Virus record (IMG/VR): IMGVR_UViG_2651869696_000013
Reading direction: 5' to 3' (one strand)
DNA from: a virus
Taxonomy: Duplodnaviria > Heunggongvirae > Uroviricota > Caudoviricetes
Length of the DNA stretch: 31,269 nt
Part shown: piece after piece, positions 3,860 to 25,857 of the stretch
How the letters are laid out: each line of letters starts with the position of its first letter
Position numbering within the stretch: the first letter of the stretch is position 1
The notes under the pieces: model-generated
The model's database searches: none
The model's input: only the letters and a program-made list of their open reading frames with translations
Told to the model about the DNA's origin: nothing
Program-made: the position numbers and the translations under genes

Positions 3860-6134
3860 AGCCTCCGGGCGTTTTGTCCCTCCGTCAGCATTTGCCGCAG
3901 GCACCGGTAAGGCGTTTACCGGTGCTTATGCATGGAACGCGCCACGCGAGGCCGTCGGGCGCGAAAGACCCCTTACACGTGACGAGATGCGTCAGGTGCA
4001 AGGTGTTTTATCCACGATTAACCGCCTGCCTTACTTTTTGCGCTCGCTGTTTACTTCACGCTATGACTACATCCGGCGCAATAAAAGCCCGGTGCACGGG
4101 TTTTATTTCCTCACATCCACTTTTCAGCGTCGTTTATGGCCGCGCATTGAGCGCGTGAATCAGCGCCATGAAATGAACACCGACGCGTCGTTGCTGTTTC
4201 TGGCAGAGCGCGACCAGTATGCGCGCCTGCCGGGGATGAATGACAAGGAGCTGAAAAAGTTTGCCGCCCGTATCTCATCACAGCTTTTCATGATGTATGA
4301 GGAACTCTGCGATGCCTGGGTGGATGCGCATGGCGAGAAAGAATCGCTGTTTACGGATGAGGCGCAGGCTCACCTCTATGGTCATGTTGCTGGCGCTGCA
4401 CGTGCTTTCAATATTTCCCCTCTCTACTGGAAAAAATACCGTAAAGGACAGATGACCACGAGGCAGGCATATTCTGCCATTGCCCGCCTGTTTAACGATG
4501 AGTGGTGGACTCATCAGCTTAAAGGCCAGCGTATGCGCTGGCATGAGGCGTTACTGATTGCTGTCGGGGAGGTCAATAAAGACCGTTCTCCTTATGCCAG
4601 TAAACATGCCATTCGTGATGTGCGTGCGCGCCGCCAGGCAAATCTGGAGTTTCTTAAATCGTGTGACCTTGAGAACAGGGAAACCGGCGAGCGCATCGAC
4701 CTTATCAGTAAGGTGATGGGCAGTATTTCTAATCCTGAAATTCGCCGGATGGAGCTGATGAACACCATTGCCGGTATTGAGCGTTACGCCGCTGCAGAGG
4801 GTGATGTGGGGATGTTTATCACGCTGACCGCGCCGTCAAAGTATCACCCGACACGTCAGGTCGGAAAAGGCGAAAGTAAAACCGTGCAGCTTAATCACGG
4901 CTGGAATGATGAGGCATTTAATCCAAAGGATGCGCAGCGTTATCTCTGCCGTATCTGGAGCCTGATGCGCACGGCATTCAAGGATAATGATTTACAGGTC
5001 TACGGTTTGCGTGTCGTCGAGCCACACCACGACGGAACTCCGCACTGGCATATGATGCTTTTTTGTAATCCACGCCAGCGTAACCAGATTATTGAAATCA
5101 TGCGTCGCTACGCGCTCAAAGAGGATGGAGACGAAAGAGGAGCCGCGCGAAACCGTTTTCAGGCAAAACACCTTAATCGGGGCGGTGCTGCGGGGTATAT
5201 CGCGAAATACATCTCAAAAAACATCGACGGCTATGCACTGGATGGTCAGCTCGATAACGATACTGGCAGGCCGCTGAAAGATACTGCTGCGGCTGTTACC
5301 GCATGGGCGTCAACGTGGCGCATTCCGCAATTTAAAACGGTTGGTCTGCCGACAATGGGGGCTTACCGTGAACTACGCAAATTGCCTCGCGGTGTCAGCA
5401 TTGCTGATGAGTTTGACGAGCGCGTCGAGGCTGCACGCGCCGCTGCAGACAGTGGTGATTTTGCGTTGTATATCAGCGCGCAGGGCGGGGCAAATGTCCC
5501 GCGCGATTGTCAGACTGTCAGGGTCGCCCGTAGCCCGTCGGATGACGTTAACGAGTACGAGGAAGAAGTCGAGAGAGTGGTCGGCATTTACGCGCCGCAT
5601 CTCGGCGCGCGTCATATTCATATCACCAGAACGACGGACTGGCGCATTGTGCCGAAAGTTCCGGTCGTTGAGCCTTTGACTTTAAAAAGCGGCATCGCCG
5701 CGCCTCGGAGTCCTGTCAATAACTGTGGAAAGCTCAACGGTGGTGATACTTCGTTACCGGCTCCCACACCTTCTGAGCACGCCGCAGCCGTGCTTAATCT
5801 GGTTGATGACGGTGTTATTGAATGGAATGAAACTGAGGTCGTGAGGGCGCTCAGGGGCGCATTAAAACACGACCTGCGAACGCCAAACCGTCAGCAAAGA
5901 AACGGAAGCCCGTTAAAACCGCATGAAATTGCACCATCTGCCAGACTGATCCGGTCGGAACGATTGCAAATCACCCGTATCCGCGTTGACCTTGCTCAGA
6001 ACGGTATCAGGCCGCAGCGATGGGAGCTTGAGGCGCTGGCGCGTGGCGCGACCGTAAATTATGACGGGAAAAAATTCACGTATCCGGTCGCTGATGAATG
6101 GCCGGGATTCTCAACAGTAATGGAGTGGACATGA
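3849..6134 (+). CDS. A: rolling-circle replication initiator endonuclease gpA
   Basis: 761-aa product from ATG 3849 (MAVKASGRF...); HUH-like PHWHMMLF and paired tyrosines in GYIAKYISKN typical of the P2 A nickase. Confidence 0.92.
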   Translation: MAVKASGRFVPPSAFAAGTGKAFTGAYAWNAPREAVGRERPLTRDEMRQVQGVLSTINRLPYFLRSLFTSRYDYIRRNKSPVHGFYFLTSTFQRRLWPRIERVNQRHEMNTDASLLFLAERDQYARLPGMNDKELKKFAARISSQLFMMYEELCDAWVDAHGEKESLFTDEAQAHLYGHVAGAARAFNISPLYWKKYRKGQMTTRQAYSAIARLFNDEWWTHQLKGQRMRWHEALLIAVGEVNKDRSPYASKHAIRDVRARRQANLEFLKSCDLENRETGERIDLISKVMGSISNPEIRRMELMNTIAGIERYAAAEGDVGMFITLTAPSKYHPTRQVGKGESKTVQLNHGWNDEAFNPKDAQRYLCRIWSLMRTAFKDNDLQVYGLRVVEPHHDGTPHWHMMLFCNPRQRNQIIEIMRRYALKEDGDERGAARNRFQAKHLNRGGAAGYIAKYISKNIDGYALDGQLDNDTGRPLKDTAAAVTAWASTWRIPQFKTVGLPTMGAYRELRKLPRGVSIADEFDERVEAARAAADSGDFALYISAQGGANVPRDCQTVRVARSPSDDVNEYEEEVERVVGIYAPHLGARHIHITRTTDWRIVPKVPVVEPLTLKSGIAAPRSPVNNCGKLNGGDTSLPAPTPSEHAAAVLNLVDDGVIEWNETEVVRALRGALKHDLRTPNRQQRNGSPLKPHEIAPSARLIRSERLQITRIRVDLAQNGIRPQRWELEALARGATVNYDGKKFTYPVADEWPGFSTVMEWT

Positions 6135-6586: not shown

Positions 6587-6792
6587 TGCACAGAATACCA
6601 GGCGAGATACCTCAGCATAAAACTAAAAATATCAAGCTGATGGCCATTGTTCACCGTCTGCAGCGGATTATGGTCAACGAAAATCTGACGCCAGATGAGC
6701 TAGTCGGGTGTGCCGAAATAGTCCGGGATAATTACGGGCGGTTTAACCATATCGGTCAATCAAGAGTTACGCCACCACCACGAAGACGATAG
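6586..6792 (+). CDS. small hypothetical protein
   Basis: 68-aa ORF; ATG overlaps the upstream stop (TAATG); no recognisable motif. Confidence 0.4.
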   Translation: MHRIPGEIPQHKTKNIKLMAIVHRLQRIMVNENLTPDELVGCAEIVRDNYGRFNHIGQSRVTPPPRRR

Positions 6793-6913
6793 AGAACGCC
6801 GCCAGTCGTGAAACTTGTTTTCAGGGCTGGCGGGGTTGAACAACTCGCGAAGCGAGGCGTTAGTTGACAGTCATATTTTTACTGCGTTGGTGCTGGTTTT
6901 TGACGGTTGAAAG

Positions 6914-6938
6914 GAGTTAGCTCGGAGAGCTAAAGCTA
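6914..6938. repeat. nested palindrome GTTAGCTC-GGA-GAGCTAA-AGCTAAC upstream of the cargo cassette
   Basis: Read directly: TTAGCTC / GAGCTAA inverted repeat with 3-nt spacer, plus a second AGCTAAC copy that could pair alternatively. Confidence 0.3.
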
Positions 6939-7021
6939 ACAACTTACAAATATTCAAAAGTAAGCTTCCTGTTGCTAACATAAGATCGATTTTTTATGTG
7001 GATGATGCAAAAAGGATAGCT

Positions 7022-7753
7022 ATGGATATTGTAATCGCTTTTCTATCACTCGCTTTTTTCGTTGCTTTTTTCATCGGGTTAATCAAGCCATCACTGGTGC
7101 GGATGCCAAACCGTAAACGTGCAAGTGCGGTTTATCTCGGAGGTGGTTTTGCATTGAGCATAATTGGTTCAATACTCTACCCAACAGAAAAAAGCCAGCC
7201 AGTTGCTAAAACTGAAACAGCAACCGTAGCAGAACATCAGGCTCAAAAAACATTCGAATATACTGAAAAAACACTCAAGGAATATCGGAACGAGCCAAAG
7301 AAGACTCGACACGATATTGTGAATAGTTACATTAACTTTAAGAAAGTGCCAGTCACCGCATCAGATGCATTTTATGCTTGCATGAGTGAGTATACATTTA
7401 CCAAAGATGATGAGTTGAAACTCGGTGATGTTCTTGGATGGTGCTTTAATGATTATGAAAATGACCCGAATTCACTAAACAATAAAATCAATCTTGATAC
7501 ATTTCAGAGCAATTTTAGTGGTTGGGATGGTTCTTATCGTCCATTGGAAAAACTAATTAAGGATAATATGAACGATGATTCATCTTATAAACATGTGTCA
7601 ACGGTATATCATTTGGTTTTGAATAAAGACCCGCACGCCATTGTGAAAACCACATTTCGTGGCACTAATGCTTATGGAGGAGTAGTTAAACAGACTATTG
7701 CTGCGCGTGTCGACATCCGAACGGGCGAAGTCGTTTCAGTATTAGATAACTAA
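7022..7753 (+). CDS. cargo membrane protein: two N-terminal TM helices plus ~170-aa soluble domain; function unknown
   Basis: ATG 7022 with AAGGA 6 nt upstream (track start 6998 is GTG); hydrophobic stretches IVIAFLSLAFFVAFFIGLI and AVYLGGGFALSIIGSILY; AT-rich. Confidence 0.7.
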   Translation: MDIVIAFLSLAFFVAFFIGLIKPSLVRMPNRKRASAVYLGGGFALSIIGSILYPTEKSQPVAKTETATVAEHQAQKTFEYTEKTLKEYRNEPKKTRHDIVNSYINFKKVPVTASDAFYACMSEYTFTKDDELKLGDVLGWCFNDYENDPNSLNNKINLDTFQSNFSGWDGSYRPLEKLIKDNMNDDSSYKHVSTVYHLVLNKDPHAIVKTTFRGTNAYGGVVKQTIAARVDIRTGEVVSVLDN

Positions 7754-7788
7754 TCGTTGATGCCGTATTGATACTTGTTATACTAGTG

Positions 7789-7818
7789 GTGGAACGAGAC
7801 TGCAATAGTCTGTTCCAC
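7789..7818 (+). other. stem-loop between the two cargo genes
   Basis: GTGGAACGAGACT-GCAAT-AGTCTGTTCCAC, about 12 bp stem with one bulge; no downstream U-tract, so not a classic intrinsic terminator. Confidence 0.3.
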
Positions 7819-7895
7819 AACAGGAGTAATTACCTTGACTGTAAGTTGCTTTTATTGAGGGAACTATGAAGTTTAAGACTGAATTGAGTTGAAAA

Positions 7896-9155
7896 TTGCA
7901 TGACTCGGTAGTGTTTGATTTGAAAAAAGACCTGGTAAAATTAGAGGGAAACCTAAAAAATACAGATTTGTTGTTGTCGTTTCAGTTCAAAATAATAAGG
8001 AATATAATTAGAAGTGAAAGGATGATCAAAGGATTAAAGTCTTTCTTAGGGGAACTAAAGGCAACAAAAAGAAAAGGTGGTTTAAAAAAAGAACAATCTA
8101 AACTTATTAAGGAAAATATTAAGAGTGTTGAGCAGGCTATTGATGATGTGAAATTTAAAATATATATCTTCAAAATGTTTGGTGATAGTGTTGCTTTTTT
8201 GTATTTGGATAAGTTTGATATTAAGCATTTTTTCTATAATGTTGTGGATTACAGTCCCAAGGAGTCAGCGGGCTATATGGGAGGGAAGGATGGCTTAAAA
8301 GAAGAATGGGAATTGGTGAAGAAGGCCTGCAAGGCTGGTGTTCCTACGTTACTCAATGATATTACAATGAGTATGAGGCATGGTGATGTTTGTTTACTTG
8401 GTGAAGGTGCACCAGTACTGGTGGAGGTGAAATCAAGTCAAAATAAAAATGATCGTGTTGAACGTCAAAAAAATAACCTTAATAGACTGGCTGGATTTTT
8501 AGCAGAAGATAAAGCTGAAGATTTTAGAGGGATGCCATTAGTGTTAAGGAAAGAACTGTGTTTTTCAGAAGTTACATATAAAAAAGAATTTAATGAGCAT
8601 CTGAATGTATGCAGGAAAAAAGGAATTTCATGGGTAAGGCTAGAAGATGGATTTTATGTGGTATCTAATCGTGGCTGTGATCTGGATATAGCATTATCAC
8701 AGTTGGATCTTAGAGGGAGGGAAATTGCACCTATATTTTTGAATGAATATAAAAATAATCAGTTGTGGGTTCCTTTAACTCCATTTGTTAATCTTATAAA
8801 TGATGCGCGTGATTTGTGTGACTTTATAAATGGGGAGTTAACTATTCTCTGTGTTCTTGATTTGGATTGTTTTAAACAAATAGCTTTGAATGAAGGGTTT
8901 GAGCTTGTTTTTGTCGATGGTGAAGACTATTCGATGATATTTAAAGAATTAGGTAGCTCATTGATTTGGGGTGTGTCATGGCAAATGATGCTTCGCACTC
9001 CTTTAGAAATGGTGTCAATGTCTTGGTTAATTAAAGATTCAATTGATAGATTTAAACGTTTACAAAAGCAACATGCTGAGATGCAGCCTGCCACTGATGT
9101 TAATACATCCGAAACCTCCTTGTTTGAAAAATATAGGCCTCTTTTTACAAAGTAG
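7896..9155 (+). CDS. cargo protein with PD-(D/E)xK-like nuclease signature; function unknown
   Basis: Long ORF in AT-rich DNA; track start is TTG 7896, first ATG is 8022, so start is uncertain; motif GDVCLLGEGAPVLVEVK (D164 ... E177-V-K179, nt 8385-8432); no Walker A motif seen. Confidence 0.7.
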   Translation: MHDSVVFDLKKDLVKLEGNLKNTDLLLSFQFKIIRNIIRSERMIKGLKSFLGELKATKRKGGLKKEQSKLIKENIKSVEQAIDDVKFKIYIFKMFGDSVAFLYLDKFDIKHFFYNVVDYSPKESAGYMGGKDGLKEEWELVKKACKAGVPTLLNDITMSMRHGDVCLLGEGAPVLVEVKSSQNKNDRVERQKNNLNRLAGFLAEDKAEDFRGMPLVLRKELCFSEVTYKKEFNEHLNVCRKKGISWVRLEDGFYVVSNRGCDLDIALSQLDLRGREIAPIFLNEYKNNQLWVPLTPFVNLINDARDLCDFINGELTILCVLDLDCFKQIALNEGFELVFVDGEDYSMIFKELGSSLIWGVSWQMMLRTPLEMVSMSWLIKDSIDRFKRLQKQHAEMQPATDVNTSETSLFEKYRPLFTK

Positions 9156-9292
9156 TCAGATGCTGTAGGTGTATATGCTATTGCATTAATTTGCATGCAA
9201 AACAAGTAGAGGTAAAAACTCTTACAGGCTGCTTGGGGGATAGCTTTTGAATGCTAATGCATTTGCATTCAAATTGCCCCATGAAGCGGGCG

Positions 9293-9311
9293 GGCGAGGC
9301 GGGGAAAGCAC
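9293..9311. other. cos site (P2-type 19-nt cohesive end GGCGAGGCGGGGAAAGCAC)
   Basis: Exact match to the P2 cohesive-end sequence as recalled; located between the cargo region and the Q 3' end, as in P2. Confidence 0.7.
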
Positions 9312-9453
9312 TGCGCGCTGGCGGTGGTGCTGATTTTATTTTTTCAGCGTCTGAGCGCGTCGTGAAGGCGCTTAGTCTGCCCGTTGAGGCGTTGGTGTGT
9401 CTGCGGGGTGTTTTGTGCGGTGGTGAGCGTGTGAGGGCGTGATGGCGGGTTGT

Positions 9454-19711: not shown

Positions 19712-20620
19712 ATGCCGATTATCGACCTGAACCAGCTACCGGCACCGGATGTGGTCGAGGAGCTGGACTTTGAAACCATTCTCGCCGAACGCAAGGCGAC
19801 ACTGATTTCCCTTTACCCGGAAGACCAGCAGGAGGCGGTCGCCCGTACCCTGACGCTGGAATCTGAGCCTCTCGTTAAACTGCTGGAGGAAAATGCTTAT
19901 CGTGAGCTTATCTGGCGTCAGCGTGTGAATGAGGCCGCACGGGCGGTGATGCTGGCCTGTGCCGCCGGTAATGACCTTGATGTGATTGGTGCCAATTACA
20001 ACACCACGCGCCTGATTATCACCCCGGCAGATGATTCGACCCTCCCGCCGACACCGGCAGTGATGGAATCTGACACCGATTATCGTCTGCGTATTCAGCA
20101 GGCGTTTGAAGGTTTAAGCGTCGCCGGGTCGGTGGGAGCCTATCAGTATCATGGTCGCAGTGCCGACGGGCGTGTCGCGGATATCTCTGTCACCAGTCCG
20201 TCTCCGGCCTGCGTCACCATCTCTGTGCTGTCACGTGAAAATAACGGTGTCGCATCCGAAGACCTGCTGGCCGTGGTGCGTAACGCCCTTAATGGCGAGG
20301 ACGTCAGGCCGGTGGCCGACCGCGTGACCGTGCAGTCTGCCGCCATCGTTGAATACCAGATAAACGCCACGCTGTATCTTTACCCTGGTCCCGAAAGCGA
20401 ACCCATCCGCGCTGCCGCTGTGAAAAAACTGGAAGCGTATATCACGGCACAGCACCGGCTGGGGCGCGACATCCGTCTGTCTGCCATTTATGCCGCTTTG
20501 CATGTGGAAGGCGTGCAGCGTGTCGAACTGGCTGCACCACTGGCCGACATCGTGCTCAACAGTACGCAGGCGTCTTTCTGTACCGAATACCGCGTCGTGA
20601 CCGGAGGCTCGGATGAGTGA
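19712..20620 (+). CDS. J: baseplate protein gpJ
   Basis: 302 aa, P2 J-like. Confidence 0.9.
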   Translation: MPIIDLNQLPAPDVVEELDFETILAERKATLISLYPEDQQEAVARTLTLESEPLVKLLEENAYRELIWRQRVNEAARAVMLACAAGNDLDVIGANYNTTRLIITPADDSTLPPTPAVMESDTDYRLRIQQAFEGLSVAGSVGAYQYHGRSADGRVADISVTSPSPACVTISVLSRENNGVASEDLLAVVRNALNGEDVRPVADRVTVQSAAIVEYQINATLYLYPGPESEPIRAAAVKKLEAYITAQHRLGRDIRLSAIYAALHVEGVQRVELAAPLADIVLNSTQASFCTEYRVVTGGSDE

Positions 20621-21224
20621 TTCGCGACTGCTGCCGACCGGCTCATCACCGCTTGAGGTCGCCGCCGCAAAAGCCTGTGCGGAAATTGAAAAAACGCCGG
20701 TCAGTATTCGTGAGCTGTGGAACCCGGATACCTGTCCGGCAAATCTGCTGCCGTGGCTGGCGTGGTCATTTTCGGTCGACAGGTGGGATGATAAATGGCC
20801 GGAAGCGACCAAACGCGCTGTTATCCGCGATGCGTATTTCATTCACTGCCATAAGGGCACTATAGGCGCAATCCGGCGTGTGGTGGAGCCGCTCGGCTAT
20901 CTGATTGAGGTGAGGGAGTGGTGGCAACTCAATGAGGAGCCGGGGACGTTCCGCATCGTTGTTGGCGTGCTTGAGCAGGGTATTACCGAGGAAATGTATC
21001 AGGAGCTGGAGCGTCTCGTTGCTGATGCAAAACCTGCAAGCCGCCATCTGACGGGACTGGCTATCAGTTTAAGTACAACCGGCAACATTTTTGCCGGTGC
21101 GGGATGCTATCACGGCGACGCCCTGACTGTTTATCCCTACACCCCGGAGGCCATTATTGTCGGAGGGGATTATTTCCCGGCCTCGGCCATTCATTTAATT
21201 GATAACCTAAGAGTAAACGCATGA
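20613..21224 (+). CDS. I: baseplate protein gpI
   Basis: 203 aa, GGAGG RBS; position and sequence as P2 I, but longer than recalled for P2. Confidence 0.85.
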
Positions 21225-22399
21225 CAGTGAAATACTACGCCATTCTGACTAATCAGGGCGCGGCACGGCTGGCTAACGCGACGATGCTCGGCAGTAAGCT
21301 GAATCTGACGCAAATGGCCGTTGGTGATGCGAATGGTGTCTTGCCGACACCAGATCCGGCACAGACAAAACTGATTAACCAGAAACACATCGCGCCGCTG
21401 AATCTTCTGAGTGTTGACCCGAACAACCAGAGCCAGATTATTGCGGAGCAAATCATCCCTGAGAACGAGGGCGGATTCTGGATCCGTGAGATAGGTCTTT
21501 ATGATGATGAAGGCGTACTCATTGCGGTGGCGAACTGCCCGGAAACGTACAAACCGCAGTTACAGGAAGGCAGTGGTCGTACCCAGACCATCCGTATGAT
21601 TCTGGTTGTCACGAATACCGAAGCCATCACGCTGAAAATCGACCCGTCGGTGGTACTGGCGACCCGTAAATACGTGGATGATAAAGTCCTGGAATTAAAG
21701 CTGTATGTGGATGACCAGATGAGAAACCACATTGTTGCACAGGATCCTCATACCCAGTATGCGCAGAAACATAATCCGACATTTACCGGAGAACCAAAAG
21801 CGCCGACGCCTGCTGCAGGAAATAACACCACGCGGATTGCGACCACTGCGTTTGTACAGGCCGCTATTACCGCTCTGATTAACGGCGCGCCAGCCACGCT
21901 GGACACACTGAAAGAAATTGCCGCAGCCATTAACAATGACCCGAAATTCAGTACCACCATTAACAATGCGCTGTCAGGTAAGCAGCCACTGGATGAGACG
22001 CTGACTCATTTGAGTGGGAAGGATGTTGCCGGTCTTCTTGCATACCTTGGTTTGGGAGAAGCGGCAAAACGGAATGTAGGGACAGGGGCGAATCAGATAC
22101 CTGATATGGGTAGCTTCACGCTTTCTGTTTCAGGTACTGGATATCAAAAATTACCATCAGGTTTTATTCTTCAGTGGGGCTCAATCGGCGCACCAGGCAT
22201 TGCACAGGATGTAGTAACCCATTTCCCGATTGCATTTCCAAACAGATGTCTGCGTGTTTTGGTCTCACAAGACTACACACCAGATAGCGGGGCTGTTGGT
22301 TATATTGCCTGTGCAGGTTTTAGTCCCGACCCGGTTAAATTTATATCCAGAGCCAGTACTCCTGGCCTCGGCGCTTCATTTTTAGCGTTAGGCTGTTAA
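21221..22399 (+). CDS. H: tail fibre protein gpH (P2-like N-terminus, invertible C-terminal module)
   Basis: N-terminus [20 protein letters not shown]... is P2 H-like; only 392 aa, and the part after the crossover site at about 22047 lies inside the invertible segment. Confidence 0.88.
22035..22060 (+). repeat. left recombination (hix/gix-like) site of the invertible segment
   Basis: TTCTTGCATACC-TT-GGTTTGGGAGAA; the 15-mer TTGGTTTGGGAGAAG (22047-22061) recurs inverted at 23932-23946; resembles the 26-bp hixL site as recalled. Confidence 0.6.
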
Positions 22400-22420
22400 T
22401 TTAGCTATATGGAGTGAAAA

Positions 22421-22861
22421 ATGAATTACATATATTCCGCGACTACAAACTCTTTCTATCCGCTGGAGATGAAAGAGGATTACACTCAAGCTGACTCATG
22501 GCCAGATGATGCTGTTGAAGTTGATGAGCAAGTGTATATTGCGTTTTCCGGATTACCGCCGAAAGGAAAAATCCGTATCGCTGGAGAAAATGGTTTTCCT
22601 GCATGGTCTGAAATTCCACCACCAACACATGAGGAACAGATTGCTGCAGCCGAACAGGAAAAGCAGCAACTGATTAATCAGGCCAACGTTTATATGAACA
22701 GTAAACAATGGCCTGGTAAAGCGGCTATTGGTCGTCTGAAAGGTGAGGAACTGGCGCAATATAATTTGTGGCTGGATTATCTGGACGCACTGGAACTGGT
22801 CGATACTTCCGGTGCGCCAGATATTGAATGGCCTACGCCTCCGGCAGTTCAGGCCAGATGA
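22421..22861 (+). CDS. G: tail fibre assembly chaperone gpG (current orientation)
   Basis: 146 aa; C-terminus ...DTSGAPDIEWPTPPA is paralogous to the G' C-terminus. Confidence 0.8.
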   Translation: MNYIYSATTNSFYPLEMKEDYTQADSWPDDAVEVDEQVYIAFSGLPPKGKIRIAGENGFPAWSEIPPPTHEEQIAAAEQEKQQLINQANVYMNSKQWPGKAAIGRLKGEELAQYNLWLDYLDALELVDTSGAPDIEWPTPPAVQAR

Positions 22862-23435
22862 CATCCGGCGCGGTGCTGGTATCTGTTGCCGTCACCGCGT
22901 CAATGTAATCCAGCACAGCGTTAAGTCGGGTGTTTTCTGTCTGCATCAGCTTCCGCCCGGCCTGCAATTTCAGTTGAATCAGACTAATGGAAGCCATTGC
23001 AGTATCAATCAGTGACTGACGCTGTGCTTCTGCCGCGCCTACTGCGGCGCTATGCTGTGCCTCAGTATCGGTCACCCATTTCTCACCATCCCATTTATCG
23101 TATGGCGTTAACGGTGCGAGAGTGGTTGTTTTTTCGGGATAGTCGCCTGGTGCTGTGATTTCTTTGGCATCTCCCGTTTCGGTGTTATAGACAATTTCAC
23201 CGCGATGGTCTGGCACATATTCCCATGAGTTAAAATCTGCTGAGCGGCAGATAGCATAACCAGCTTTATGTGTAACTGGCGCATCTAAACAAGAACATGC
23301 CGGGATACCGACGCCAACAGCAAGATATTCAGTTGATGTAGAAATATATTCCCGCGTTTCACCATCATAATTATAAACGGTAATATCTCCCGCCTTTGTG
23401 GCGATGAGTTCCTTATTTAATATAGCTTTATCCAT
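22833..23435 (-). CDS. alternative tail fibre assembly chaperone (G')
   Basis: 200 aa; C-terminus ...TDTSTAPDVIWPELPEA; convergent with G, overlapping at the 3' ends. Confidence 0.75.
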   Translation of the reverse strand: MDKAILNKELIATKAGDITVYNYDGETREYISTSTEYLAVGVGIPACSCLDAPVTHKAGYAICRSADFNSWEYVPDHRGEIVYNTETGDAKEITAPGDYPEKTTTLAPLTPYDKWDGEKWVTDTEAQHSAAVGAAEAQRQSLIDTAMASISLIQLKLQAGRKLMQTENTRLNAVLDYIDAVTATDTSTAPDVIWPELPEA

Positions 23436-23946
23436 CAGGCAGCCCTCACGATATAATTAAAGGCAATGTTACGGGGTCGATTTTCGTTTGCAGTTGGAAC
23501 AATTCTTGAAGCATCAAGGCCAATCACTTTTGGGTAAACAGCGCCGTCTGCTCTTTCTGTCACCATACTTCTGGTTAAGGAGAAATAACTATTGTTTGTA
23601 GAGGGACTCAATGGCACTATGGCCCCCTTAAACGAGCCTGCTGTTTCCCATATTGAATAATTTTCAGTGTTTACAGTTCTGAACTCACCATAGATATTAC
23701 GTATGGCATCGCCCTGAGCTGATAATATTGTTCTCCCCGCATCCGCACTACGCCCATCATCCCAGCCACGAATAAATTCACCGCGTAAATCAGGCAATTT
23801 ATTTGTCGGGTAAGCCTTTGCCAGTTCCGGGTATTCTTCAGCAGAAAAAGCTGCTCCGTTGCATTTCAGCCAGCCTGTTGGCGGAGTGGCTGAGGGCCAC
23901 GGAACAGGCACCCCAACCGGTAATGCAGAGCCTTCTCCCAAACCAA
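23435..23946 (-). CDS. promoterless alternative tail-fibre C-terminal cassette (H')
   Basis: In frame across the crossover site (..NVGLGEGSAL..); tail-collar-like motif GWLKCNGAAFSAEEYPELAKAY...LPDLRGEFIRGWDDGR; expressed only after inversion fuses it to the H N-terminus. Confidence 0.7.
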
Positions 23947-23958
23947 CGTTTATGAAAA
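23933..23958 (-). repeat. right recombination (hix/gix-like) site of the invertible segment
   Basis: Reverse complement reads TTTTCATAAACG-TT-GGTTTGGGAGAA; same right half-site as the left site. Confidence 0.6.
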
Positions 23959-24013
23959 TGCAGAGATAATGGCTAACTGGCATCATCCCCGGTTTTTATT
24001 CAGGGGATTGATC

Positions 24014-24607
24014 ATGCTTATTGGCTATGTACGCGTGTCAACAAATGACCAGAACACCGATTTGCAACGTAGTGCGCTGAACTGCGCGGGATGTGAGCGG
24101 ATTTTTGAGGATAAAATCAGCGGCACTAAGTCCGACAGACCGGGGCTGAAAAAACTGCTCAGGACACTATCGGCAGGAGACACGCTGGTAGTCTGGAAGC
24201 TGGACAGGCTGGGGCGTAGTATGCGGCATCTGGTCATTCTGGTTGAGGAGCTGCGCGAACGCGGCGTTAATTTTCGCAGCCTGACAGATGCTATTGATAC
24301 CAGCACGCCGATGGGGCGTTTTTTCTTTCATGTGATGGGTGCCCTGGCTGAAATGGAGCGAGAACTCATTGTCGAGCGGACACGCGCCGGACTGGAAGCG
24401 GCCAGAGCCAAAGGGCGTATTGGTGGCAGACGTCCGAAGCTCACCGCGAGTGAGTGGGAACAGGCAGGACGGTTGCTGGCTGCGGGTGAATCACGTCAAC
24501 GCGTGGCGCTGATTTTTGATATTGGCCTGTCCACGCTCTATAAAAAATTCCCCTCATCAGCGGCAAAGAATAAATTGTGTCATCCCTTAGCCAACCGGGA
24601 CAAATAG
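24014..24607 (+). CDS. serine DNA invertase (Hin/Gin/Cin/Pin family)
   Basis: Start at ATG 24014: MLIGYVRVSTNDQNTDLQ (catalytic Ser motif); C-terminal HTH ...GRIGGRRPKLT...VALIFDIGLSTLYKKF typical of the family. Confidence 0.9.
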   Translation: MLIGYVRVSTNDQNTDLQRSALNCAGCERIFEDKISGTKSDRPGLKKLLRTLSAGDTLVVWKLDRLGRSMRHLVILVEELRERGVNFRSLTDAIDTSTPMGRFFFHVMGALAEMERELIVERTRAGLEAARAKGRIGGRRPKLTASEWEQAGRLLAAGESRQRVALIFDIGLSTLYKKFPSSAAKNKLCHPLANRDK

Positions 24608-24666
24608 CCTGACATCTCCGGCACAACTGAAAATAACACTCACCCATTAACCACGGAGTTAAACGG

Positions 24667-25857
24667 ATGAGTGACTATCATCACGGCGTGCAGGTGCTGG
24701 AGATTAACGACGGCACCCGCGTCATTTCCACCGTATCCACCGCCATTGTTGGCATGGTCTGCACGGCCAGCGATGCGGATGCGGAAACCTTCCCCGTCAA
24801 TAAACCGGTGCTGATCACCAATGTGCAGAGCGCGATTGCAAAGGCCGGTAAAAAAGGCACGCTGGCGGCATCGTTGCAGGCCATCGCTGACCAGTCAAAA
24901 CCGGTCACCGTTGTCGTGCGCGTGGAAGACGGCACCGGCGACGACGAAGAAACGAAACTCGCGCAGACCGTTTCCAATATCATCGGCACCACTGACGAAA
25001 ACGGTCAGTACACCGGACTGAAAGCCCTGCTGGCGGCGGAGTCGGTAACCGGTGTTAAACCGCGTATTCTCGGTGTGCCGGGACTGGATACCAAAGAGGT
25101 GGCTGTTGCACTGGCATCCGTCTGTCAGAAGCTGCGCGCTTTCGGGTATATCAGCGCATGGGGCTGTAAAACCATTTCCGAGGTGAAAGCCTACCGTCAG
25201 AATTTCAGCCAGCGTGAGCTGATGGTCATCTGGCCGGATTTCCTCGCATGGGATACGGTTGCCAGTACCACCGCCACCGCGTATGCCACCGCCCGTGCGC
25301 TGGGTCTGCGTGCCAAAATCGACCAGGAGCAGGGCTGGCATAAAACGCTGTCCAACGTCGGGGTGAACGGTGTTACCGGCATCAGCGCCTCTGTATTCTG
25401 GGATTTGCAGGAGTCCGGCACCGATGCTGACCTGCTTAACGAGTCAGGCATCACAACGCTGATTCGCCGCGACGGTTTCCGCTTCTGGGGTAACCGTACC
25501 TGCTCCGATGACCCGCTGTTCCTCTTTGAAAACTACACCCGCACCGCGCAGGTGCTGGCCGACACGATGGCTGAGGCGCACATGTGGGCGGTGGACAAGC
25601 CCATCACCGCAACGCTGATTCGCGACATCGTTGACGGCATCAATGCCAAATTCCGTGAGCTGAAAACAAACGGCTATATCGTGGATGCGACCTGCTGGTT
25701 CAGCGAAGAATCCAACGATGCGGAAACCCTCAAGGCCGGAAAACTGTATATCGACTACGACTATACCCCGGTGCCTCCTCTTGAAAACCTGACCCTGCGC
25801 CAGCGTATTACCGATAAATACCTGGCAAATCTGGTCACCTCGGTTAACAGCAATTAA
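24667..25857 (+). CDS. FI: tail sheath protein gpFI
   Basis: 396 aa, P2 FI-like. Confidence 0.93.
   Translation: MSDYHHGVQVLEINDGTRVISTVSTAIVGMVCTASDADAETFPVNKPVLITNVQSAIAKAGKKGTLAASLQAIADQSKPVTVVVRVEDGTGDDEETKLAQTVSNIIGTTDENGQYTGLKALLAAESVTGVKPRILGVPGLDTKEVAVALASVCQKLRAFGYISAWGCKTISEVKAYRQNFSQRELMVIWPDFLAWDTVASTTATAYATARALGLRAKIDQEQGWHKTLSNVGVNGVTGISASVFWDLQESGTDADLLNESGITTLIRRDGFRFWGNRTCSDDPLFLFENYTRTAQVLADTMAEAHMWAVDKPITATLIRDIVDGINAKFRELKTNGYIVDATCWFSEESNDAETLKAGKLYIDYDYTPVPPLENLTLRQRITDKYLANLVTSVNSN

What the first reader, a model, noticed from the sequence alone, without database searches (positions are those of the whole stretch)
21221..22399. Tail fibre H is a chimera: P2-like N-terminal anchor with a short exchangeable receptor-binding C-terminus
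The first ~275 residues match the P2 H N-terminus, but the protein is only 392 aa (P2 H is much longer, as recalled) and its C-terminal part lies inside the invertible segment. The DNA from about 22060 onward, including G and G', looks more AT-rich than the preceding H sequence, consistent with a horizontally exchanged specificity module.
Basis: partly seen in the sequence, partly recalled or inferred. Interest (0 to 1): 0.45.

Follow-up and report, generated by a model that had tools for sequence, protein, structure and literature searches.

The report
Invertible tail-fibre tip in P2-like prophage
The tail-fibre gene of this E. coli P2-like prophage has a fixed front part and two alternative receptor-binding tips on a 1.9-kb DNA segment that an adjacent invertase flips, a classical host-range switch that is real here but already well known.

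Summary
H (21221-22399) is 392 aa; P2 H is 669 aa. H resembles P2 H only up to residue ~284, at 39-42% identity in two blocks. Third-position GC falls from 0.57 to 0.33 at 22006-22033, next to a 26-bp recombination site (22035-22060). An inverted partner site lies at 23933-23958.

The 1.9-kb segment between the sites carries two tip-plus-chaperone cassettes, and a Pin-type serine invertase gene follows (24014-24607). The cassettes are Hv+G (pyocin/AP22-type lectin-like tip) and Hv'+G' (T4 gp37-type collar tip). Flipping in silico gives an in-frame 445-aa H'. That exact protein is in NCBI. Another E. coli isolate carries the same prophage, one mismatch in 8.4 kb, in the flipped state.

The cassette is closest to the P segment of prophage e14: G' is 90% identical to TfaE, the invertase 87% to PinE, and the right site matches 26/26.

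The chimera reading is therefore supported, with three corrections. The N-terminal part is a diverged H allele, not close to P2 H. A length of 392 aa is typical (median 382 among 71 homologues). The tip is swapped by programmed inversion as well as by horizontal exchange.

This is a known kind of system: Mu G, P1 C, e14 P, and P2-like prophages of EPEC. Interest is low.

The parts
20613..21224 (+). Baseplate/tail protein gpI (203 aa). Its C-terminal ~58 residues diverge from P2 gpI and are extended by 27 aa. This is the left edge of the region that is not P2-like at DNA level (~21050).
   Evidence: Pfam Tail_P2_I. 82% identity to P2 I over residues 1-175, with the divergence concentrated after residue ~145. 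P2 DNA homology (91%) ends at 21049.
21221..22399 (+). Tail-fibre gene H in the present (+) orientation, 392 aa: constant part plus the Hv tip.
   Evidence: ORF. Pfam Phage_tail_fib 1-150 and Gp53-like_C 310-392. The exact protein is WP_072127146.1 of E. coli.
21221..21670 (+). N-terminal domain of H (aa 1-150), inferred to attach the fibre to the baseplate.
   Evidence: PF12571, 211 bits, full-length match. 42% identity to P2 H. Many homologues share only residues 1-180/185. An R2-pyocin fibre 1-164 fused to P2 H 291-669 is functional (PMC6116203).
21671..22034 (+). Shaft of the constant part (aa 151-271), with the conserved ATTAFV...LDTL..AAA...DP.F motif.
   Evidence: 39% identity to P2 H 246-387. 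PDB 9d93 tail-collar fibre gp4, E = 5.5e-7, over residues 205-270.
22035..22060 (+). Left 26-bp recombination site, TTCTTGCATACC TT GGTTTGGGAGAA. It lies in codons 272-280 (..LLAYLGLGE). The central dinucleotide is at 22047-22048.
   Evidence: The crossover is mapped to 22047-22061 by the naturally flipped isolate.
22049..23944 (.). Invertible segment (1896 bp between the two central dinucleotides) carrying two tip-plus-chaperone cassettes in opposite orientations.
   Evidence: Relatives are collinear with the in-silico flipped window. Logan contig L095 equals 22047-23946 exactly.
22061..22399 (+). Hv(+) tip (112 aa): a conserved [16 protein letters not shown] linker followed by a small C-terminal lectin-like beta-sandwich domain.
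   Evidence: Pfam Gp53-like_C, 52.9 bits. A profile of 8 tips matches PDB 4mtm (2.4e-10), 9zd7 (2.6e-8) and the R1 pyocin fibre 6cxb (4.6e-8). GC3 0.345.
22421..22861 (+). G, the tail-fibre assembly chaperone for the (+) tip (146 aa).
   Evidence: Pfam Caudo_TAP, 130 bits. Its C-terminal 96 residues are 59% identical to e14 TfaP.
22833..23435 (-). G', the tail-fibre assembly chaperone for the (-) tip (200 aa). Its 3' end overlaps that of G by 29 bp.
   Evidence: Pfam Caudo_TAP. 90% identical to e14 TfaE over 200 aa.
23435..23932 (-). Hv'(-) tip (165 aa), silent in this orientation. After inversion it is fused in frame to H residues 1-280, giving a 445-aa H'.
   Evidence: Pfam Collar. PDB 9cuy 8.5e-26 and T4 gp37 2xgf 3.6e-17. 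57% identical to e14 StfE. In-frame fusion. The exact 445-aa protein is EFN7847257.1.
23933..23958 (-). Right 26-bp recombination site, read on the minus strand: TTTTCATAAACG TT GGTTTGGGAGAA.
   Evidence: 26/26 identical to the right-hand site of the e14 P segment.
24014..24607 (+). Pin-type serine DNA invertase (197 aa, Ser9 in MLIGYVRVST), outside the segment. Its last ~7 codons run into P2-homologous DNA that in P2 lies upstream of FI.
   Evidence: Pfam Resolvase plus HTH_7. 87% identical to PinE and 79% to Gin. P2 homology resumes at 24587.

Best explanation
The locus is a two-state host-range switch of the Hin/Gin/Cin/Pin (Din) type, built into the tail-fibre gene of an E. coli P2-like prophage.

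Fixed part. H encodes a constant part (aa 1-280) made of a baseplate-attachment domain and a shaft. It ends in the motif LGLGE, whose codons form the inner half of a 26-bp recombination site.

Switch. A Pin-type serine invertase, encoded just downstream, recombines this site with an inverted partner 1.9 kb away.

- Present orientation: the V-W-J-I-H operon reads H constant + Hv (392 aa; small lectin-like tip of the AP22/R-pyocin kind), followed by chaperone G.
- After inversion: it reads H constant + Hv' (445 aa; T4 gp37-type collar tip), followed by chaperone G'.

A lysogen culture should therefore release two kinds of virion with different receptor specificity.

Evolutionary exchange. Each tip-plus-chaperone cassette, and the whole cassette with its invertase, also moves horizontally between unrelated phages. 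This explains the low GC3 and the mosaic joints.

Shown here: the sites, the reading frames, the domain families, the compositional break, and the existence of both orientations of this same prophage in nature.

Inferred: baseplate attachment by the N-terminal domain, receptor binding by the tips, chaperone pairing, dependence on Fis and an enhancer, and the different host ranges.
For: Sites and frames.
- Inverted repeat at 22044-22061 / 23932-23949.
- The 14-mer occurs exactly twice, inverted.
- 26-bp sites with a common TT centre.
- In-frame 445-aa fusion after flipping.

Invertase.
- Resolvase plus HTH_7 domains.
- 87% identical to PinE, 79% to Gin.

Two cassettes.
- Caudo_TAP in both G and G'; Gp53-like_C versus Collar tips.
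- PDB matches for the tips.

Both orientations of the same element.
- GCA_001266155.1 is 100% identical to the window over 8441 nt.
- GCA_013045985.1 matches the in-silico flipped window with 1 mismatch in 8441 nt.
- The outer half-sites stay in place, which puts the crossover within 22047-22061.
- The exact predicted H' is in NCBI.
- Assembly signatures of mixed orientation: a 1900-nt contig equal to 22047-23946, and a fold-back contig end in L093.
- In complete E. coli genomes the native junction is covered at >=80% in 36 genomes and the flipped junction in 383.

Mosaicism.
- GC3 change point at 22006-22033, p = 0.0005.
- Breakpoints at the repeat in L005, L087 and L088.
- The tip family occurs in unrelated phages.

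Published precedent.
- Inversion shown experimentally in P2-like prophages of EPEC and in e14 (PMC4272514).
Against: - Nothing here measures inversion in the strain the window comes from.
- Nothing here measures adsorption or host range.
- The Fis-dependent enhancer expected in the 5' end of the invertase gene was not demonstrated. Lower third-position variation in codons 1-15 and 21-35 is only suggestive.
- No promoter or terminator signal above chance was found.
- The low GC3 could in part reflect mutation bias or selection in fast-evolving tips rather than foreign origin.
Confidence: 0.9

Rival explanations
1. The switch is a fossil. The segment was acquired and once inverted, but in this prophage it is now fixed, so H is a static chimera and the second tip is dead cargo.
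For: Among species-representative genomes, some H genes without any invertase nearby keep a single perfect or near-perfect site at the LGLGE motif (L013, L019, L031). Fixation therefore does occur. No activity was measured here.
Against: The invertase ORF is intact and 87% identical to PinE. The inner half-sites and centres are identical. Both silent ORFs, Hv' and G', are intact. The same prophage, with 1 mismatch in 8.4 kb, exists in the other orientation, and assemblies break exactly at the sites.
Confidence: 0.05
2. H is not a chimera. It is a uniformly inherited, diverged orthologue of P2 H, and the composition shift merely reflects the amino-acid content or fast evolution of the tip.
For: The H constant part already has lower GC3 (0.56) than the neighbouring structural genes (0.60-0.72), so the decline is partly gradual.
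Against: The shift is at synonymous positions and is abrupt (0.57 to 0.33, p = 0.0005). There is no similarity to P2 H after residue 284. Relatives with 97-98% identical N-terminal parts carry unrelated tips. The tip cassette is 97% identical in a different genomic context, starting exactly at the site. P2 H itself switches at the same motif to 46% identity with Mu S.
Confidence: 0.03
3. The inversion mainly serves the host, for example as phase-variable expression of a domesticated tailocin, rather than widening phage host range.
For: P2-type tails are the ancestors of R-type bacteriocins, and carotovoricin Er changes its killing range by the same kind of inversion (reference cited in PMC4272514). 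The (+) tip belongs to the R-pyocin tip family.
Against: The window carries a complete P2 gene set: integrase, cox, replication gene A, portal, terminase, capsid, lysis and tail genes. The backbone is 91-98% identical to P2. This is an apparently intact temperate phage, not a tail-only element.
Confidence: 0.02

Closest known systems
Invertible P segment and PinE of the defective lambdoid prophage e14 (E. coli K-12: stfP-tfaP / tfaE-stfE-pinE)
   Same: Same layout and size: a ~1.8-1.9-kb segment, two tips of ~110 and ~160 aa, two Tfa chaperones whose 3' ends overlap by 29 bp, and the invertase just outside. G' is 90% identical to TfaE, Hv' 57% to StfE, and the invertase 87% to PinE. The right site is 26/26 identical and the inner half of the left site is identical.
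   Different: The constant part here is a full P2-type H (280 aa, PF12571) in an apparently complete P2-like prophage; in e14 it is the ~100-aa StfP remnant. The (+) tip and the N-terminal half of G are different alleles (about 25-27% identity to StfP). The outer half of the left site differs.
P2-like prophages and phages with an invertase next to H (Escherichia phage pro483; EPEC E2348/69 P2-like prophages; Salmonella phage MET_P1_103_31)
   Same: Same gene order: I-H-G-G'-Hv'-invertase-FI. pro483 is 91.6% identical over 79% of the region. MET_P1_103_31 is collinear with the flipped window at 95%. Inversion in P2-like prophages of EPEC has been demonstrated by sequencing and PCR (PMC4272514).
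   Different: Tip alleles differ. The pro483 (+) tip and the N-terminal half of its G, and the central insert of its Hv', are unrelated at DNA level. One EPEC prophage has three sites and four states; here there are only two sites.
Phage P2 gpH/gpG (NC_001895)
   Same: Same position after gpI in the V operon. Same N-terminal domain family and shaft motif (42% and 39% identity). The similarity ends at the same LGL(G/Q)E motif.
   Different: P2 H is 669 aa. It has two Mu-S-like repeats (aa 168-251) that are absent here, and a 282-aa tip that is 46% identical to Mu S. P2 has no invertase and only a fossil gix-like half-site, and Z/fun lies between G and FI. G here is unrelated to P2 G.
Phage Mu G segment / Gin (S-U / U'-S')
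   Same: Same mechanism and logic: a constant fibre part, two tip-plus-chaperone cassettes, and 26-bp sites inside the fibre ORF. Gin is 79% identical to the invertase here.
   Different: The Mu segment is 3 kb with ~330-aa tips, a different constant part, and a different site sequence (TTCCTGTAAACC GA GGTTTTGGATAA). The tips are unrelated to those here.
R-type pyocin fibre (PA0620 / Prf15) and phage AP22 fibre gp53 C-terminal domain
   Same: The Hv tip family matches these lectin-like beta-sandwich C-terminal domains through to the last residue (4mtm 2.4e-10; 6cxb 4.6e-8). PMC6116203 describes this domain as lectin-like and similar to polysaccharide-binding proteins.
   Different: The pyocin fibres are ~690 aa with a long shaft and knob domains before the tip. 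Here the domain follows the recombination site almost directly. No structure was modelled here.

Membership tests
Din-type (Hin/Gin/Cin/Pin) invertible tail-fibre switch | Small serine recombinase with an N-terminal catalytic domain and a C-terminal HTH, closely related to Gin/Pin | tested here: met
   Pfam Resolvase 177 bits plus HTH_7 48 bits. 87% identical to PinE and 79% to Gin. Ser9 lies in MLIGYVRVST.
Din-type (Hin/Gin/Cin/Pin) invertible tail-fibre switch | Two 26-bp sites in inverted orientation with imperfect dyad symmetry and an identical central dinucleotide | tested here: met
   Sites at 22035-22060 and 23933-23958, both ...AC(C/G) TT GGTTTGGGAGAA. The right site is identical to that of e14, and the architecture is the same as Mu gix.
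Din-type (Hin/Gin/Cin/Pin) invertible tail-fibre switch | The site lies inside the fibre ORF, so both orientations give in-frame fibres, each followed by its own chaperone | tested here: met
   392-aa and 445-aa products. Caudo_TAP genes G and G' follow each tip.
Din-type (Hin/Gin/Cin/Pin) invertible tail-fibre switch | The segment actually inverts | tested here: met
   Indirect but strong. The same prophage (1 mismatch in 8441 nt) is in the flipped state in GCA_013045985.1, with the crossover within 22047-22061. Assemblies break at the sites. The exact H' is in NCBI. Not measured in the source strain.
Din-type (Hin/Gin/Cin/Pin) invertible tail-fibre switch | Fis-dependent recombinational enhancer inside the 5' end of the invertase gene | tested here: inconclusive
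   Among 15 invertase genes, third-position entropy is lower in codons 1-15 and 21-35 (0.6-0.77) than in most of the gene (0.9-1.6). It tracks amino-acid conservation, however, and Fis binding was not modelled.
P2 gpH tail fibre | N-terminal tail-collar fibre domain (PF12571), encoded directly after gpI in the V-W-J-I-H-G operon | tested here: met
   PF12571 211 bits, residues 1-150. Gene order V, W, J, I, H.
P2 gpH tail fibre | Full-length collinearity with P2 H | tested here: not met
   Only residues 26-284 align, in two blocks at 42% and 39% identity, with P2 161-245 missing. There is no similarity after the LGLGE motif.
Gp53-like_C / R-pyocin-type lectin-like fibre tip | C-terminal ~85-100-residue domain matching the family profile through to the C-terminus | tested here: met
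   PF21882 52.9 bits against a cut-off of 24.9. The profile of 8 tips matches 4mtm 67-164 (2.4e-10) and 6cxb 48-146 (4.6e-8). The fold itself was not modelled.
T4 gp37-type collar tip (for Hv') | Phage tail collar domain, with the N- and C-terminal strands conserved, including the terminal NIAFNYIVR motif | tested here: met
   PF07484 57.7 bits. 2xgf 3.6e-17, with matches at both ends; 9cuy 8.5e-26.
Tail-fibre assembly (Tfa) chaperones | Conserved C-terminal domain with a variable N-terminal fibre-binding domain | tested here: met
   Caudo_TAP in G and G'. Only the C-terminal halves are conserved between G, TfaP, TfaE and Mu U'. In relatives the N-terminal half of G varies together with the tip. 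The domain roles are taken from PMC9608196.

The most novel reading that the evidence does not exclude
The recombination site embedded in the LGLGE-coding motif may be more than the pivot of inversion. It may also be the joint through which whole tip-plus-chaperone cassettes are swapped between co-resident, unrelated prophages (e14, P2-like, Mu-like and others). The swap would be done by invertase acting in trans, that is by site-specific recombination rather than homologous recombination.

Observations compatible with this:
- A 97%-identical cassette begins exactly at the site in another phage contig that has a different invertase.
- Partner cassettes are replaced between the sites in close relatives.
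- Single perfect sites persist in H genes that have no invertase nearby.

The idea was already raised in the 1990s literature on P1, p15B and Mu tail fibres; that statement rests on my own recollection.
Probability: 0.25. Interest if true: 0.35.

Novelty: already known. Interest (0 to 1): 0.13.

Why it matters
For annotation, H, the 'orphan' Hv' ORF and the recombinase should be described together as one phase-variable receptor-binding system. The public records call them only 'phage tail protein' and 'recombinase family protein'.

In practice, the prophage can produce two virion types. Host-range predictions from a single assembly are therefore incomplete, and assemblies may break or misjoin at the sites, as seen.

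The compact 112-aa tip fused directly behind a conserved linker is a convenient natural example for engineering P2- or pyocin-type fibres.

None of this changes current understanding.

Tried and rejected
- **NCBIfam:** no family for H, the tips or the chaperones, and only sub-threshold recombinase models for the invertase.
- **Third recombination site (multi-state shufflon, as in one EPEC prophage):** none found with up to 2 mismatches.
- **Promoter and terminator scans of 21000-24800:** not above the shuffled expectation, so not used.
- **Enhancer test by synonymous-site conservation:** inconclusive.
- **H as a truncated or decayed gene:** rejected. The exact protein is in NCBI, identical 392-aa CDSs are annotated in several E. 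coli genomes, and the median length of homologues is 382 aa.
- **P2 G versus G and G':** no meaningful similarity.
- **Haggard-Ljungquist 1992 paper (PMC206541):** not held. Its central point, that the P2 H C-terminus is homologous to Mu S from the gix site onward, was re-derived directly instead.
- **Structure prediction and the large protein searches:** not run. The alignment of tips came from loci that the structure tool does not accept, and the profile-to-PDB matches already identified both tip families.
- **AT-rich cargo ORFs (6998-7753, 7896-9155):** Pfam and PADLOC searches found nothing.
Full report
**What is at the coordinates**

The window is a P2-like (Peduovirus-type) prophage of E. 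coli. It has an integrase, cox, replication gene A, and portal, terminase, capsid, lysis and tail genes. Its backbone is 91-98% identical to P2 and to many E. coli prophages.

The gene order around the finding is as follows:

| Feature | Coordinates | Strand | Size | Pfam family |
|---|---|---|---|---|
| gpI | 20613-21224 | + | 203 aa | Tail_P2_I |
| H | 21221-22399 | + | 392 aa | Phage_tail_fib, Gp53-like_C |
| G | 22421-22861 | + | 146 aa | Caudo_TAP |
| G' | 22833-23435 | - | 200 aa | Caudo_TAP |
| Hv' (fibre-tip ORF) | 23435-23932 | - | 165 aa | Collar |
| invertase | 24014-24607 | + | 197 aa | Resolvase, HTH_7 |
| FI (sheath) | from 24667 | + | 396 aa | not scanned here |

**Checking the observation**

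- *Length.* H is 392 aa and P2 H is 669 aa.
- *Match to P2 H.* H 26-258 aligns with P2 H 27-255 at 42% identity, and H 175-284 with P2 H 246-387 at 39%. Nothing aligns after that. The N-terminal 280 residues therefore belong to the P2 H family but are a diverged allele.
- *Where P2 homology ends.* At DNA level, P2 homology stops inside gene I at 21049 and resumes only at 24587. The C-terminus of gpI diverges along with it.
- *Sources of the length difference.* There are three: P2 H 161-245, which includes two Mu-S-like repeats at 168-251, is absent here; the shaft is about 30 residues shorter; and the tip is 112 aa instead of about 282 aa.
- *Composition.* Third-position GC is 0.56 in the constant part of H. 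It is 0.35, 0.38, 0.43 and 0.38 in Hv, G, G' and Hv', then 0.57 in the invertase and 0.70 in FI. The best single change point inside H is at 22006-22033 (0.57 to 0.33; permutation p = 0.0005). That is within ten codons of the recombination site.
- *Exception inside the segment.* The centre of the segment (22700-23000) is GC-richer. It encodes the conserved C-terminal domains of both chaperones.

**The switch**

An 18-nt inverted repeat lies at 22044-22061 and 23932-23949. The 14-mer TTGGTTTGGGAGAA occurs exactly twice in 31 kb, in inverted orientation. Read as 26-bp sites:

- left: TTCTTGCATACC TT GGTTTGGGAGAA (22035-22060)
- right, on the minus strand: TTTTCATAAACG TT GGTTTGGGAGAA (23933-23958)

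The inner half-site GGT TTG GGA GAA encodes G-L-G-E of the motif LGLGE, at H residues 276-280. Flipping the DNA between the central dinucleotides fuses H 1-280 in frame to Hv', giving a 445-aa protein. No third site exists, so this is a two-state switch.

The invertase is 87% identical to PinE of e14 and 79% to Gin of Mu. The right site is 26/26 identical to the right-hand site of the e14 P segment. G' is 90% identical to e14 TfaE. Hv' is 57% identical to StfE.

**Evidence that it really flips**

- The exact 392-aa H is WP_072127146.1. The exact 445-aa protein predicted by flipping is EFN7847257.1.
- A contig of GCA_001266155.1 is 100% identical to the window over 8441 nt.
- A contig of GCA_013045985.1 matches the in-silico flipped window over 8441 nt with one mismatch. 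The outer half-sites, which differ at one base, stay where they were. The exchange therefore took place within 22047-22061, which contains the central TT.
- A 1900-nt Logan contig corresponds exactly to 22047-23946. A contig of GCA_001265185.1 ends by folding back from the right site into the constant part of H. Both are what assemblers produce when reads of both orientations are present.
- In complete E. coli genomes, the native junction is covered at 80% or more in 36 genomes and the flipped junction in 383.
- Salmonella phage MET_P1_103_31 and E. coli Z142-6 carry the flipped arrangement, with breakpoints at the repeat.
- Inversion in P2-like prophages of EPEC and in e14 has been shown experimentally (PMC4272514).

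**What the parts are**

- *N-terminal domain of H.* Residues 1-150 are the PF12571 domain. Across 77 loci from species-representative genomes, many homologues share only residues 1-180/185. Others share up to about 213-219, 257 or 278-280. These look like recurrent joints.
- *Role of that domain.* An R2-pyocin fibre 1-164 fused to P2 H 291-669 is active (PMC6116203). This supports an N-terminal baseplate-attachment module, but the role here is an inference.
- *The (+) tip.* It begins with a conserved linker ([16 protein letters not shown]) and ends in a small variable domain. A profile of eight such tips matches, right to the C-terminus, the phage AP22 fibre domain 4mtm (2.4e-10), a short tail fibre 9zd7 (2.6e-8) and the R1-pyocin fibre 6cxb (4.6e-8). 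This domain is a lectin-like beta-sandwich similar to polysaccharide-binding proteins (PMC6116203).
- *The (-) tip.* It matches a short tail fibre 9cuy (8.5e-26) and the collar of T4 gp37 (2xgf, 3.6e-17), including the terminal NIAFNYIVR motif.
- *The chaperones.* In relatives, the parts that vary are the (+) tip with the N-terminal half of G, and the central insert of Hv'. This fits the known Tfa organisation: a variable N-terminal fibre-binding domain and a conserved C-terminal domain (PMC9608196).

**Mosaic origin**

- Tips of the (+) family occur in SfI/SfII/SfIV/SfV, phi80, and Ralstonia, Vibrio and Pseudomonas phages.
- An unverified phage contig (KM389307) carries DNA 97% identical to 22044-23124. 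The identity starts exactly at the site, next to a different invertase.
- P2 H itself changes at the same motif to 46% identity with Mu S. It retains 22 nt identical to the Mu gix region. The canonical P2 H is thus a chimera with its joint at the same place.

**How common and how typical**

Among 71 complete H homologues, lengths range from 283 to 825 aa with a median of 382. A 392-aa H is therefore ordinary. An invertase lies within 5 kb in 9 of 63 loci with enough flank. Paired site-like 14-mers occur in 5 of the 9 invertase-bearing loci and in 0 of the 62 others.

**Verdict**

What is there is a standard Din/Pin-type invertible tail-fibre cassette in a P2-like prophage. It is nearly identical in organisation to the e14 P segment and to described P2-like phages such as pro483.

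The system is already known and my interest score is low. Three things remain untested here: activity in the source strain, the Fis/enhancer requirement (one search was inconclusive), and the receptors of the two tips.

Noticed in passing
window 6600-9400 (ORFs 6998-7753 + and 7896-9155 +): The most AT-rich island of the window (GC 0.29-0.39; GC3 0.30-0.33). It lies between replication gene A / an ASCH-DUF3850 ORF and the portal gene, the position where P2 carries old and tin. Its two ORFs (251 and 419 aa) have no Pfam and no PADLOC match. They are possibly uncharacterised cargo or defence genes.
   Followed up: partly
window 24560-24667: The invertase ORF runs 13-16 codons beyond where PinE and Gin end. 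It extends into DNA that is 97.7% identical to P2 from 24587 onward, the region that in P2 holds the activator-binding site of the FI promoter. The right-hand junction of the inserted cassette therefore lies inside the 3' end of the invertase ORF, and only 59 bp separate it from FI.
   Followed up: partly
window 21049-21224 (3' end of gene I): gpI is 82% identical to P2 gpI overall, but it diverges after residue ~145 and is 27 aa longer. P2 DNA homology ends at 21049. The C-terminus of gpI thus appears to have been replaced together with the N-terminal domain of H, as if the two form one interacting module.
   Followed up: partly
L003 (P2, NC_001895) H codons 373-387; L009 (Mu) G-segment boundaries: P2 H, which has no invertase, keeps 22 nt identical to the Mu gix region (CTCGGTTTACAGGAAACGGTAA) at its LGLQE motif. 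From there on it is 46% identical to Mu S. It also has two tandem ~40-aa repeats (168-207 and 212-251), each 65-67% identical to Mu S 111-150.
   Followed up: yes
L013, L019, L031 (and L015, L030) versus L048, L053: Some H genes with no invertase within 5 kb still carry a single perfect or near-perfect copy of the 14-nt site at the LGLG(E/D) motif. Others keep the amino-acid motif, but the DNA has drifted by 4-6 mismatches. Paired sites were seen only in invertase-bearing loci (5 of 9 against 0 of 62).
   Followed up: partly
L093 (GCA_001265185.1 JHQY01000024.1) locus positions 5512-5577; L095 (Logan SRR8140256 contig, 1900 nt): These look like assembly artefacts caused by the switch. One contig ends by folding back from the right site into the constant part of H. 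One contig consists of exactly the invertible segment (window 22047-23946). Seven of the 16 contigs that carry G are shorter than 2 kb.
   Followed up: yes
L011, L033, L044 (NZ_JBQPOM01..., 'Vagococcus sp. WN89Y'): Three contigs of an assembly labelled Vagococcus (a Gram-positive genus) carry enterobacterial P2-type H genes 74-86% identical to this one. This suggests a contaminated, mixed or mislabelled assembly.
   Followed up: no
window 22833-22861: The 3' ends of G and G' overlap by 29 bp on opposite strands at the centre of the segment, exactly as tfaP and tfaE do in e14. Hv' and G' overlap by one base (shared coordinate 23435), which suggests translational coupling.
   Followed up: no
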